Source of the DNA: a virus
Strand: one strand, 5' to 3'
Virus genome (UHGV): UHGV-0098755
Length of the DNA: 64,000 bases
Shown here: positions 39,588 to 40,415 of the stretch, piece after piece
How the letters are laid out: each line of letters begins with the position of its first letter
How positions within the stretch are numbered: the stretch's first letter is position 1
The notes under the pieces: model-generated
The model's input: only the letters and a program-made list of their open reading frames with translations
The model's database searches: none
Told to the model about the DNA's origin: nothing
Made by a program: the position numbers and the translations under genes

Positions 39588-39663
39588 TGGTCGAGGCAGT
39601 AGGGATCGAACCTACGACCCAGGACTTAGAAGGTCCTTGCTCTTCCTTCTGAGCTATGCCTCG
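39588..39663 (-). tRNA. tRNA-Arg (anticodon UCU)
   Basis: Cloverleaf folded by hand: perfect acceptor stem, T-arm GGTTCGATCC, anticodon loop CUUCUAA, CCA encoded. Confidence 0.8.
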
Positions 39664-39667
39664 TATT

Positions 39668-39742
39668 TGGCGGACGTGATAGGATTCGAACCTATAACCA
39701 ATCGCTTAACAGGCGATCGCTCTGCCATTGAGCTACACATCC
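39668..39742 (-). tRNA. tRNA-Asn (anticodon GUU)
   Basis: Hand-folded; D-arm GCTC/GAGC, anticodon stem ATCGC/GCGAT, loop CUGUUAA, T-arm TTCGAAT, CCA encoded. Confidence 0.75.
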
Positions 39743-39746
39743 AAAT

Positions 39747-39833
39747 TGGTGGGGAGTGATGGAGTCGAACCACCCGAGTCGCAATGACAATGGATTTACA
39801 GTCCACACCGCTACCTCTACGGGATAACTCCCC
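39747..39833 (-). tRNA. tRNA-Tyr (anticodon GUA), long variable arm
   Basis: Hand-folded 87 nt; anticodon loop CUGUAAA; long extra arm; T-arm GGTTCGACTCC. Confidence 0.7.
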
Positions 39834-39842
39834 AAATTAATT

Positions 39843-39917
39843 TGGTGGCCCTGGGTGGAATTGAACCACCATCTGGCGATTATGAGTCGCTTGCTTGAAC
39901 CTTCCAGCTACAGGGCC
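39843..39917 (-). tRNA. tRNA with anticodon CAU (Ile2/Met type; T4 tRNA-Ile equivalent)
   Basis: Hand-folded; anticodon loop CUCAUAA; T-arm GGTGGTTCAATTCCACC. Confidence 0.7.
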
Positions 39918-39918
39918 T

Positions 39919-39994
39919 TGGTGCTGATTGACGGAATCGAACCGCCGACCTTCTCATTACAAGTGAGTTGCTCTACCTACTGAGCTAAATCAGC
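39919..39994 (-). tRNA. tRNA-Thr (anticodon UGU)
   Basis: Hand-folded; anticodon loop CUUGUAA; D-arm GCTC/GAGC. Confidence 0.8.
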
Positions 39995-39999
39995 AAAAC

Positions 40000-40089
40000 T
40001 GGCGGAGGCGATAGGATTTGAACCTATGAGTCGCCGGAGCGACTGCCGGTTTTCAAGACCGGTGCATTAAACCACTCTGCCACGCCTCC
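40000..40089 (-). tRNA. tRNA-Ser (anticodon UGA), long variable arm
   Basis: Hand-folded 90 nt; anticodon loop CUUGAAA. Confidence 0.8.
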
Positions 40090-40091
40090 AG

Positions 40092-40165
40092 TCTCCATAC
40101 AAGGATTTGAACCTTGGACCTCCTGATCCCAAATCAGGCGCTCTACCAAACTGAGCTACACGGAG
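40092..40165 (-). tRNA. tRNA-Pro (anticodon UGG), CCA not encoded
   Basis: Hand-folded; anticodon loop UUUGGGA; T-arm AAGGTTCAAATCCTT. Confidence 0.75.
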
Positions 40166-40175
40166 TAAATTAAAT

Positions 40176-40249
40176 TGGAGCGGATAATGAGAATCGAACT
40201 CACATCATCAGATTGGAAGTCTGAGGTAATGCCATTATACGATATCCGC
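40176..40249 (-). tRNA. tRNA-Gly (anticodon UCC)
   Basis: Hand-folded; anticodon stem TCAGA/TCTGA, loop CUUCCAA. Confidence 0.75.
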
Positions 40250-40254
40250 AAATT

Positions 40255-40341
40255 TGGTGCGAGAAGTGGGACTCGAACCCACAAGGAAATCATTCCGCAG
40301 CATTTTAAGTGCTGTGCCTTTACCAATTTGACCATTCTCGC
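40255..40341 (-). tRNA. tRNA-Leu (anticodon UAA), long variable arm
   Basis: Hand-folded 87 nt; anticodon loop CUUAAAA. Confidence 0.8.
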
Positions 40342-40342
40342 G

Positions 40343-40415
40343 CTGGGAATAAAGGACTCGAACCTTTGCATCTAGCAGTCAAAGTGCTATGCCTTACCAA
40401 CTTGGCTAATTCCCA
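40343..40415 (-). tRNA. tRNA-Gln (anticodon UUG), CCA not encoded
   Basis: Hand-folded; anticodon loop CUUUGAC; abuts tRNA-Leu 5' end. Confidence 0.75.

What the first reader, a model, noticed from the sequence alone, without database searches (positions are those of the whole stretch)
39588..40415. Ten-gene tRNA cluster including Asn(GUU) and Tyr(GUA), which T4 lacks
Hand-folding gives, in map order on the minus strand, Arg(UCU), Asn(GUU), Tyr(GUA), CAU (Ile2/Met), Thr(UGU), Ser(UGA), Pro(UGG), Gly(UCC), Leu(UAA), Gln(UUG). T4 is recalled to encode eight (Gln, Leu, Gly, Pro, Ser, Thr, Ile, Arg). The Asn and Tyr genes sit between Arg and the CAU tRNA, so Arg is contiguous with the main cluster. 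Extra tRNAs could reflect codon-usage adaptation or replacement of host tRNAs cleaved by anticodon nucleases.
Basis: partly seen in the sequence, partly recalled or inferred. Interest (0 to 1): 0.45.

Follow-up and report, generated by a model that had tools for sequence, protein, structure and literature searches.

The report
T2-type ten-tRNA operon, already known
The ten tRNA genes are real and correctly read, but this exact cluster is the common, already published form in T4-like phages (T2L, RB27 and hundreds of others), and T4 is the exception because a selfish nuclease gene, segB, replaced its Asn and Tyr genes.

Summary

The cluster is not new. RB27 carries the same ten genes in the same order. 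The Ile2(CAU), Tyr, Asn and Arg genes are identical or 86/87 identical to the T2L cluster published in 2008. The Asn+Tyr pair occurs in 396 phage records, while T4-type segB occurs in 126.

T4 lacks Asn and Tyr because the homing-endonuclease gene segB sits at that position. T6 is intermediate (Ile-Tyr-segB-Arg). SegB's preferred 27-bp cleavage site is intact in the window's Asn gene, and the window has no segB.

- The window's Arg and CAU genes are different alleles from T4's (about 65-74% identity). The whole 678-bp block 39220-39897 is an alternative cassette.
- The CAU tRNA is Ile2-like, not Met.
- The weak-scoring Tyr gene keeps a cloverleaf with compensatory changes.

On function, published T6 work shows that this tRNA-Tyr relieves Septu, a nuclease that cuts the variable arm. 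Asn and Tyr residues are also about 1.7-fold more frequent in the window's ORFs than in an E. coli sample.

Verdict: already known, low interest.

The parts
40485..40509 (-). Candidate T4-type middle promoter (MotA box TGCTTTA, 12-nt spacer, TATTAT), about 70 nt upstream of tRNA-Gln
   Evidence: Pattern TGCTTYA-N11-13-TANNNT matches here. There are 19 matches in the window against 2.4 expected from shuffles. The region is 97% identical to T4. Promoter function is inferred, not shown.
40342..40415 (-). tRNA-Gln(UUG), first gene of the operon; CCA not encoded
   Evidence: ARAGORN; Rfam 66 bits; 73/73 identical to T4; 3' end read
40255..40341 (-). tRNA-Leu(UAA), type II
   Evidence: 87/87 identical to T4
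40176..40249 (-). tRNA-Gly(UCC)
   Evidence: 73/74 identical to T4
40091..40165 (-). tRNA-Pro(UGG); CCA not encoded; 1-nt spacer to Ser
   Evidence: 74/74 identical to T4; 3' end and spacer
40000..40089 (-). tRNA-Ser(UGA), type II
   Evidence: 87/87 identical to T4
39919..39994 (-). tRNA-Thr(UGU). T2L has the ORF trna.1 here instead; RB27 and Sf22 have Thr
   Evidence: 73/76 identical to T4; T2L map; T2L trna.1 primers absent from the window
39843..39917 (-). CAU tRNA, Ile2-like (expected lysidine-modified, reading AUA). A different allele from T4/T6 tRNA-Ile. Annotated 'tRNA-Met' in most public records
   Evidence: 75/75 identical to T2L and RB27, 47/72 to T4. Best E. coli matches are genes annotated tRNA-Ile in 5424 of 5426 genomes. 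77% identical to ileX against 72% to metT and 68% to initiator Met. The anticodon arm GCGACTCATAATCGC is identical to ileX.
39747..39833 (-). tRNA-Tyr(GUA), type II with a 14-nt variable arm and a weak D-stem
   Evidence: 30.2 bits; 87/87 identical to RB27 and Sf22, 86/87 to T2L, 85/87 to T6. Covariation on 8 homologues: 91% of cells paired against 43-60% when slid, and 4 pairs changed on both sides.
39668..39742 (-). tRNA-Asn(GUU)
   Evidence: 74.1 bits, the best in the window; 75/75 identical to T2L and RB27
39666..39692 (-). Preferred 27-bp SegB homing-endonuclease recognition site (GGTTCGAATCCTATCACGTCCGCCAAA): the 3' end of tRNA-Asn plus 2 nt
   Evidence: An exact 27-mer is present in the window, T2L and RB27, and absent from T4, T6 and Sf22. 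I reconstructed the site from PMC2330249: 27 bp, starting GGTTCRANTCC, with G6, A16, G18, A26 and A27 distinguishing it from the Ser site. The window's Asn and Ser sequences differ at exactly those five positions.
39588..39663 (-). tRNA-Arg(UCU), a different allele from T4/T6 tRNA-Arg
   Evidence: 76/76 identical to T2L and RB27, 51/69 to T4 and T6
39220..39897 (-). Alternative cassette with no blastn match to T4: 3' 55 nt of Ile2, Tyr, Asn, Arg and the ORF called trna.2 in T2L. It occupies the place of T4's Ile 3' part-segB-Arg
   Evidence: blastn of the window against the T4 locus; T4 map
39219..39569 (-). 116-aa ORF (T2L 'trna.2'), function unknown, starting 18 nt after tRNA-Arg behind GAGG
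   Evidence: 89.7% nucleotide identity to T2L trna.2; PHROG 3355 'unknown function', E 1.5e-52; no Pfam match
39104..39221 (-). rnaD (species 2 stable RNA) homologue
   Evidence: 88% identical to T4 rnaD, 80% to T2L rnaD
38956..39096 (-). rnaC (species 1 stable RNA) homologue
   Evidence: 99.3% identical to T4 rnaC, 98.6% to T2L rnaC

Best explanation
This is the segB-free, T2L/RB27-type allele of the tRNA operon of T-even phages (Tequatrovirus).

Ten tRNA genes lie head to tail with 0-10 nt spacers and are read on the minus strand in the order Gln-Leu-Gly-Pro-Ser-Thr-Ile2(CAU)-Tyr-Asn-Arg. A small ORF and the stable RNAs rnaD and rnaC follow.

Inferred from T4 biology: the array is transcribed as one precursor, probably from a MotA-type middle promoter about 70 nt upstream of Gln, and is cut into tRNAs by host RNase P and 3' trimming enzymes. 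CCA would be added by the host enzyme to Gln and Pro, the two genes that do not encode it.

Asn and Tyr are not additions peculiar to this phage. They are part of the widespread form of the operon. T4 lacks them because the mobile GIY-YIG homing-endonuclease gene segB occupies that position. SegB's preferred target is the 3' end of the Asn gene, and that target is intact here. In a mixed infection with a segB-carrying phage, this block (Ile2, Tyr, Asn, Arg, ORF) would therefore be expected to be cut and replaced.

Function, in decreasing order of support:
1. Eight tRNAs read A-ending codons that are mostly commoner in the phage than in the host (AGA, AUA, GGA, UCA and ACA most clearly), so they supplement supply.
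2. Tyr buffers the infected cell's tRNA-Tyr pool against host nucleases that destroy it. This is shown for T6's near-identical gene against Septu, as a dosage effect rather than resistance to cleavage.
3. Asn most likely supplements supply for an Asn-rich proteome. A counter-defence role for Asn is possible but untested.
For: Identity of the cluster:
- The ten genes are confirmed.
- RB27 has the same ten genes in the same order.
- Per-gene identity to RB27 is 73/73 to 90/90. Identity to T2L is 75/75 (CAU), 86/87 (Tyr), 75/75 (Asn) and 76/76 (Arg).
- Published T2L primers for Asn, Tyr, Arg and the reverse Met primer match the window exactly.

Frequency:
- Asn+Tyr is covered at >=80% in 396 phage records, 251 matching records are >=99% identical.
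- The whole region is covered in 279 records.
- T4 segB is covered in 126 records.

segB story:
- T4 map Ile-segB-Arg-rnaD-rnaC; T6 map Ile-Tyr-segB-Arg.
- PMC2330249 shows that SegB cleaves T2L preferentially in tRNA-Asn. In T4 x T2L crosses 99.6% of progeny carry segB, and the T2L Met/Tyr/Asn/Arg/trna.1/trna.2 block is excluded.
- The exact 27-bp site is present in the window.
- There is no segB in the window; the best tblastn E-value is 1.2.

Operon features:
- Spacers and encoded CCA.
- Middle-promoter pattern.
- rnaC, rnaD and ORF mapping.

Function:
- AGA is 11.4 per 1000 in the phage against 2.2 in the E. coli sample, and ACA is 19.0 against 7.1. Asn is 6.1% against 3.6%, and Tyr 4.6% against 2.7%.
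- PMC13096335 shows that overexpressed T6 tRNA-Tyr rescues T6 from Septu, that deleting the tRNA region sensitises T6, and that T4, which lacks Tyr, cannot escape.
- The Septu cleavage context G46-U47-C48-A49 is conserved in the window's Tyr.
Against: - Nothing contradicts the identification.
- The functional part is inference by homology. No expression, aminoacylation or modification data exist for this phage.
- The codon argument does not discriminate. Lys rises more than Asn or Tyr (7.7% against 4.1%) yet no tRNA-Lys is present. CCA (Pro) is not enriched (13.0 against 12.8 per 1000), and CAA (Gln) and UUA (Leu) are only 1.2-1.4-fold higher.
- The E. coli sample is only 8 genes (2264 codons), and the phage ORF set is a crude longest-ORF call.
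- T6 tRNA-Tyr is itself cleaved by Septu and protects only when over-expressed or amplified, and amplification needs SegB, which this phage lacks. A single copy here may therefore give little protection.
- The direction 'T4 is derived' rests on the homing experiments, the counts and the T6 intermediate, not on a rooted phylogeny. The record counts include duplicate GenBank/RefSeq entries.
Confidence: 0.93

Rival explanations
1. One reading: this phage, or its recent lineage, gained two extra tRNA genes (Asn, Tyr) by insertion between the T4-like Ile and Arg genes, as an adaptation.
For: T4, the reference phage, lacks them. Phage tRNA arrays are known to vary: the His-bearing variant occurs in 335 records, T2L lacks Thr, and T6 lacks Pro and Ser.
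Against: The flanking Arg and CAU genes are not T4's. They are 51/69 and 47/72 identical, while the six upstream tRNAs are 96-100% identical, so this is not a simple insertion. The arrangement is commoner than T4's (396 against 126 records). It also occurs in another genus, Mosigvirus (AV112). Experiments show SegB converting the Asn/Tyr form into the T4 form.
Confidence: 0.05
2. Asn and/or Tyr are decaying pseudogenes, kept only as DNA (for example as a nuclease target) and not made into working tRNAs.
For: Tyr barely passes Rfam (30.2 against 29 bits). Its D-stem has a C12-C24 mismatch in all 8 homologues. ARAGORN does not call the homologous segment in three distant phages. A T5-like homologue is flagged as a pseudogene in its record. 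The 2026 paper found T6 tRNA-Tyr 'relatively unstable'.
Against: Asn is the best-scoring tRNA in the window (74.1 bits). For Tyr, the acceptor, anticodon, variable and T stems are 95-100% paired across 8 homologues, with double-sided changes at 4 pairs, and 0 of 500 shuffles reach the observed pairing or covariation. Northern blots detect T6 tRNA-Tyr. Over-expression of the T6 gene (85/87 identical) rescues infection, and in the related SP15 gene, changing the anticodon or a stem abolishes rescue.
Confidence: 0.03
3. The Asn and Tyr genes (with His in relatives) serve only translational supply for an AT-rich, Asn/Tyr-rich proteome and have no counter-defence role in this phage.
For: Asn is 6.1% against 3.6% and Tyr 4.6% against 2.7% of residues. 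AAU and UAU are about 2-fold commoner than in the E. coli sample. The anticodon loops are identical to the host's, so there is no sign of nuclease evasion. The Septu cleavage site is conserved, and T6 tRNA-Tyr is cleaved like the host's. No paper consulted shows a nuclease against which a phage tRNA-Asn protects, and SP15 tRNA-Asn did not rescue from PrrC170.
Against: His is rarer in the phage than in the host (1.7% against 3.0%), yet tRNA-His is the next accessory gene in 335 relatives, so supply alone does not predict the set. Lys is the most over-used residue and has no tRNA here. Deleting the T6 tRNA region increases Septu sensitivity. The Tyr gene alone is 94-97% conserved across unrelated phage families and phage-plasmid-like elements, while its neighbours are 70-84%, which suggests special selection on Tyr.
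Confidence: 0.3

Closest known systems
Phage RB27 tRNA cluster (KM607000 / NC_025448, RB27_t001-t010)
   Same: Same ten tRNAs, same order and strand. Every gene is 100% identical over the compared length, including Tyr 87/87, Asn 75/75, Arg 76/76 and CAU 75/75. The SegB 27-mer is present. The same unknown ORF lies upstream of Gln.
   Different: In RB27, rnaD follows Arg directly. The window has the 116-aa ORF (T2L 'trna.2') between Arg and rnaD.
Phage T2L tRNA gene region (EMBL AJ880101; Brok-Volchanskaya et al. 2008, PMC2330249)
   Same: The CAU-Tyr-Asn-Arg-trna.2-rnaD-rnaC block is the same (75/75, 86/87, 75/75, 76/76; ORF 89.7%). There is no segB. SegB's preferred site lies in Asn.
   Different: T2L has the ORF trna.1 (402 bp) where the window has tRNA-Thr, so T2L has nine tRNAs.
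Phage T4 tRNA region (NC_000866: eight tRNAs, segB, rnaD, rnaC)
   Same: Same genomic position between e.8 and trna.2-4. Gln, Leu, Gly, Pro, Ser and Thr are 96-100% identical. rnaC is 99% identical. The upstream leader is 97% identical.
   Different: T4 has segB instead of Tyr and Asn, different Ile(CAU) and Arg alleles (47/72, 51/69), no ORF between Arg and rnaD, and no 149-aa ORF upstream of Gln.
Phage T6 tRNA-rich region (MH550421 / AP018814; Chihara et al. 2026, PMC13096335)
   Same: It carries the same tRNA-Tyr (85/87), which was shown experimentally to relieve Septu immunity when over-expressed or amplified.
   Different: T6 has segB in place of Asn, T4-type Ile and Arg alleles, and lacks Pro and Ser. 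Its escape route, SegB-driven amplification of Tyr, is not available to a segB-free phage.
Eleven-tRNA variant with tRNA-His(GUG) (Shigella phage Sf22, Aplg8, slur phages)
   Same: The same ten genes at 74/76 to 90/90 identity, and the same flanking ORFs.
   Different: An extra 190 bp (tRNA-His plus a 114-nt spacer) lies between Asn and Arg. It is present in 335 records. The exact SegB 27-mer is not present in Sf22.

Membership tests
tRNA (Rfam RF00005 / ARAGORN cloverleaf) | Score at or above the curated Rfam gathering score, and a cloverleaf with the anticodon in a 7-nt loop | tested here: met
   All ten genes pass (30.2-74.1 bits against 29) and ARAGORN calls all ten. Tyr passes only narrowly.
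tRNA (Rfam RF00005 / ARAGORN cloverleaf) | Helices maintained by compensatory change among homologues (tested for the weakest member, Tyr) | tested here: met
   8 homologues from 5 phage groups plus a plasmid: 91.1% of cells paired against 43-60% when slid; 4 pairs with changes on both sides; 0 of 500 shuffles reach the observed pairing or covariation. The D-stem is only 59% paired. Three distant homologues that ARAGORN did not call were left out, which favours the structure.
T-even tRNA operon, segB-free T2L/RB27-type allele | Gene content and order Gln-Leu-Gly-Pro-Ser-(Thr)-CAU-Tyr-Asn-Arg, at near-identity to the described members | tested here: met
   Identical order to RB27. 100% identity per gene to RB27 and 99-100% to T2L for the shared genes.
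T-even tRNA operon, segB-free T2L/RB27-type allele | Position between e.8/rnaC/rnaD and the T4 trna.2-trna.4 genes | tested here: met
   Window 38411-39219 aligns to T4 e.8-rnaC-rnaD, and 41044-41894 aligns to T4 trna.2-trna.4.
T-even tRNA operon, segB-free T2L/RB27-type allele | Absence of segB and presence of the preferred SegB site in tRNA-Asn | tested here: met
   No tblastn hit to T4 or T6 SegB better than E = 1.2 in 64 kb. An exact 27-mer lies at 39666-39692. Actual cleavage cannot be tested here.
tRNA-Ile2 (lysidine-modified CAU tRNA) as against elongator or initiator tRNA-Met | Closer in sequence to host ileX/ileY than to metT/metU or metZWV | tested here: met
   77% to ileX against 72% to metT/metU and 68% to metZ. 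83% to a lambdoid-prophage tRNA-Ile. The best matches in 5424 of 5426 E. coli genomes are annotated tRNA-Ile.
tRNA-Ile2 (lysidine-modified CAU tRNA) as against elongator or initiator tRNA-Met | TilS identity elements: C4-G69 and C5-G68 in the acceptor stem plus an ileX-type anticodon arm (elements recalled from Ikeuchi et al. 2005, not re-read here) | tested here: met
   The acceptor stem GGCCCTG/CAGGGCC gives C4-G69 and C5-G68. The anticodon arm GCGA-CTCATAA-TCGC is identical to ileX, whereas metT has ATCA-CTCATAA-TGAT.
tRNA-Ile2 (lysidine-modified CAU tRNA) as against elongator or initiator tRNA-Met | C34 converted to lysidine and the tRNA charged with isoleucine | not testable with these tools
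   Needs mass spectrometry or aminoacylation assays.
Phage counter-defence tRNA (tRNA-Tyr against Septu / Retron-Eco7 PtuAB) | Homology to a phage tRNA-Tyr shown experimentally to relieve the defence | tested here: met
   85/87 identical to T6 tRNA-Tyr, whose over-expression rescues T6 from Septu. 85% identical to a T5-like phage's Tyr.
Phage counter-defence tRNA (tRNA-Tyr against Septu / Retron-Eco7 PtuAB) | Rescue of this phage's infection on a host carrying the defence | not testable with these tools
   Needs plaque assays with a Tyr deletion mutant.
Nuclease-evading phage tRNAs (anticodon-loop mutation model, van den Berg et al. 2023, PMC10264068) | Anticodon loop differs from that of the host isoacceptor | tested here: not met
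   The loops of Asn (CTGTTAA), Tyr (CTGTAAA), Arg (CTTCTAA) and Ile2 (CTCATAA) are identical to those of asnT, tyrU, argU and ileX.

The most novel reading that the evidence does not exclude
The accessory genes of this operon (Tyr and Asn here, plus His in 335 relatives) are three of the four GUN-anticodon, queuosine-family tRNAs. These are the set cut by colicin-E5-type nucleases. The Tyr gene alone is 94-97% identical in unrelated elements: Vequintavirus, and ~110-kb phage-plasmid-like E. coli plasmids in 269 genomes. It is only 70% identical to host tyrU, and its neighbours in those elements are 70-84% identical. The most novel reading not excluded is that Tyr, and perhaps Asn and His, form a horizontally circulating counter-defence module aimed at host nucleases that deplete this tRNA class. 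Asn would then protect against a nuclease not yet identified, and segB homing would trade that protection for the ability to amplify genes.
Probability: 0.15. Interest if true: 0.4.

Novelty: already known. Interest (0 to 1): 0.08.

Why it matters
It matters little as a discovery. The cluster has been sequenced, annotated and experimentally dissected: T2L in 2008, RB27 in 2014, T6 tRNA-Tyr in 2026.

The check has three practical uses:
- T4 should not be used as the baseline for 'normal' T-even tRNA content, because its eight-gene set reflects a homing-endonuclease replacement.
- The CAU gene, labelled 'tRNA-Met' in T2L, RB27, Sf22, T6 and other records seen here, is by sequence an Ile2-type tRNA reading AUA.
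- This phage carries an intact SegB target and no segB. It should lose this block in co-infection with T4 or T6, and it cannot use SegB-driven amplification of tRNA-Tyr to escape Septu.

Tried and rejected
- I looked for a remnant of the Asn gene beside segB in T4 and T6. There is none; the only local matches are generic T-arm or D-arm similarity.
- I looked for anticodon-loop differences from host tRNAs as a sign of nuclease evasion. There are none in Asn, Tyr, Arg or Ile2.
- Pfam on five flanking ORFs gave no match. PHROGs gave only 'unknown function' families.
- The sigma-70 promoter scan over 39000-41200 was not above chance (7 found, 5.9 expected), and no minus-strand intrinsic terminator was found. 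The MotA-type pattern was informative instead.
- I searched the PARIS paper for tRNA-Asn or tRNA-Thr as targets and found no mention.
- I considered whether the window's Tyr matches host chromosomal tRNA-Tyr. There were no chromosomal hits at all, only plasmid hits, and direct alignment to tyrU gives 70%.
- ARAGORN failed to call the Tyr-homologous segment in CR8, UFV01 and Q7622, and these rows aligned out of register. I left them, TB004 (identical to the window) and E. coli tyrU out of the covariation count.
- With laxer filters, Rfam preferred the tRNA-Sec model for the Tyr gene (34.4 bits, below its gathering score of 47). This reflects the long variable arm and is not evidence of tRNA-Sec.
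- Searches failed because a search term was too short. The first blastn against loci mixed records and was redone.
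Full report
**1. Is it there?**

Yes. ARAGORN run over all 64 kb reports ten tRNA genes and nothing elsewhere. Rfam's tRNA model independently finds the same ten above its gathering score. Nine score 59-74 bits, and Tyr scores only 30.2 against a threshold of 29. Transcription runs from Gln to Arg. Spacers are 0-10 nt, and eight of the ten genes encode CCA; Gln and Pro do not.

**2. What phage, and how common is the cluster?**

The window is a Tequatrovirus. A 24-kb stretch is 95-97% identical to many Escherichia and Shigella T4-like phages. 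The 1.2 kb around the cluster matches 891 phage records, 279 of them over at least 80% of its length, and those records already annotate the same tRNAs.

RB27 has the same ten genes in the same order, each 100% identical. The T2L cluster (AJ880101) has CAU 75/75, Tyr 86/87, Asn 75/75 and Arg 76/76. T2L differs only in having an ORF (trna.1) where the window has Thr. Published T2L primers for Asn, Tyr and Arg match the window exactly.

Counts in the phage collection are as follows. They include duplicate GenBank/RefSeq entries.

| Feature | Records covered at ≥80% |
|---|---|
| Asn+Tyr pair | 396 (251 matching records ≥99% identical) |
| Eleven-gene variant with tRNA-His | 335 |
| T4-type segB | 126 |

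In the eleven-gene variant, tRNA-His plus a 114-nt spacer lies between Asn and Arg.

**3. Why T4 differs**

T4's map is Gln-Leu-Gly-Pro-Ser-Thr-Ile, then segB (a GIY-YIG homing endonuclease), then Arg-rnaD-rnaC. T6's map is Gln-Leu-Gly-Thr-Ile-Tyr-segB-Arg.

The window aligns to T4 up to the first 20 nt of the CAU gene and again from rnaD onward. Window 39220-39897 has no blastn match to T4. Within that block, the window's Arg and CAU genes are 51/69 and 47/72 identical to T4's, whereas the six upstream tRNAs are 96-100% identical. T6's Ile and Arg are the T4 alleles (74/74 and 75/75) and its Tyr is the window type (85/87). The difference from T4 is therefore an alternative cassette, not two genes inserted between T4's Ile and Arg.

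Brok-Volchanskaya et al. (PMC2330249) showed three things: SegB cuts T2L DNA preferentially at a 27-bp site inside tRNA-Asn; 99.6% of progeny of T4 x T2L crosses carry segB; and the T2L block with Met(CAU), Tyr, Asn, Arg and its ORFs is excluded. From their description I reconstructed the site as GGTTCGAATCCTATCACGTCCGCCAAA. It is present exactly at window 39666-39692 and in T2L and RB27, but not in T4, T6 or Sf22. The window has no segB. Neither T4 nor T6 keeps a remnant of Asn.

**4. Identity of the CAU tRNA**

Its best E. coli matches are genes annotated tRNA-Ile in 5424 of 5426 genomes, with a median of two places per genome. Against K-12 genes it is 77% identical to ileX, 72% to metT and 68% to initiator Met. 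Its anticodon arm is identical to ileX. Its acceptor stem has C4-G69 and C5-G68, which I recall as TilS identity elements. It is Ile2-like and should read AUA. The modification itself cannot be tested here.

**5. Is Tyr a real tRNA?**

Its low Rfam score comes from a long variable arm and a D-stem with a C-C mismatch. Eight ungapped homologues were compared: the window, T2L, T6, a Mosigvirus, a Vequintavirus, a T5-like phage, a Klebsiella phage and an E. coli plasmid.
- 91% of cells pair, against 43-60% when the partners are slid.
- The anticodon and variable stems pair in 100% of cells.
- Four pairs change on both sides.
- No shuffle of 500 reaches the observed pairing or covariation.

Three distant homologues that ARAGORN did not call were excluded. 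The gene is only 70% identical to host tyrU and has a variable-arm loop two nt longer, but it keeps G46-U47-C48-A49.

**6. Function**

Shown elsewhere: Septu cuts tRNA-Tyr at C48/A49. Over-expressed T6 tRNA-Tyr rescues T6. Deleting the T6 tRNA region sensitises it. T4, which lacks Tyr, cannot escape. Escape mutants amplify Tyr together with segB, and that amplification needs SegB (PMC13096335). T5-family tRNA-Tyr relieves Retron-Eco7 in a dosage-dependent way (PMC11555353).

Computed here: in 73 long ORFs of the window (17,104 codons), Asn is 6.1% and Tyr 4.6% of residues. The figures are 3.6% and 2.7% in eight K-12 genes. AGA, AUA, GGA, UCA and ACA are 1.6- to 5-fold commoner than in that sample, UUA and CAA only 1.2-1.4-fold, and CCA is not enriched. 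That fits supply supplementation but does not discriminate. Lys rises most and has no tRNA here, and His is rarer in the phage yet is the next accessory tRNA in relatives. The anticodon loops of the four cassette tRNAs are identical to the host's.

My reading is that the eight NNA readers supplement supply. Tyr buffers the Tyr pool, which is weaker protection here because there is no segB to amplify it. Asn mainly supplements supply, and its gene doubles as the homing site.

**7. Expression (inferred)**

A MotA-box/-10 pattern lies about 70 nt upstream of Gln, at 40485-40509. The pattern occurs 19 times in the window against 2.4 expected. Downstream of Arg come a 116-aa ORF of unknown function (T2L 'trna.2'; PHROG 3355), rnaD (39104-39221) and rnaC (38956-39096).

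**8. Verdict**

The feature is already known, and interest is low.

Noticed in passing
window 39747-39833; L007 4001-4087; L016 156-242: The phage-type tRNA-Tyr has no detectable match on any E. coli chromosome. It is 94% identical to a tRNA-Tyr on ~110-kb plasmids in 269 E. coli genomes. The one plasmid context examined looks phage-plasmid-like, with an Asn-Tyr-Thr-Ser tRNA group, a DNA ligase and an integrase. The gene is also 97% identical in a Vequintavirus and 85% in a T5-like phage. The neighbouring tRNAs in those elements are only 70-84% identical to the window's. A single gene seems to be either moving between phage families or under unusual constraint.
   Followed up: partly
window 39456-39481 (-): A second MotA-box/-10 (middle-promoter-like) match lies inside the 116-aa ORF, about 235 nt upstream of rnaD. 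rnaD and rnaC might therefore have their own promoter in phages that carry this ORF.
   Followed up: no
window about 38956-39000 (-), 3' part of rnaC: rnaC ends with a T-arm-like hairpin, CCGGGTTCGAATCCCGG. It contains the core GGTTCRANTCC of the SegB consensus site (consensus).
   Followed up: no
window 40576-41025 (-): A 149-aa ORF (PHROG 2290, unknown function, no Pfam match) lies between T4-type trna.2 and tRNA-Gln. It is absent from T4 and T6 but present in RB27, Sf22 and Sfk20.
   Followed up: partly
window 38132-38410: T4's e.7 gene is replaced by unrelated sequence holding a 58-aa ORF (38166-38342). This is another small mosaic difference from T4 just downstream of the operon.
   Followed up: no
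window 39219-39569 and 41019-41315: There is a naming clash in the literature. T2L 'trna.2' (the ORF after Arg, window 39219-39569) is unrelated in position to T4 'trna.2' (upstream of the cluster, window 41019-41315).
   Followed up: yes
hits H61 and others: Eighteen records named 'Campylobacter phage' (for example C9, 128 kb) carry this tRNA-Tyr at about 96% identity. That is odd for a Campylobacter virus and may reflect mislabelled or contaminating enterobacterial phages.
   Followed up: no
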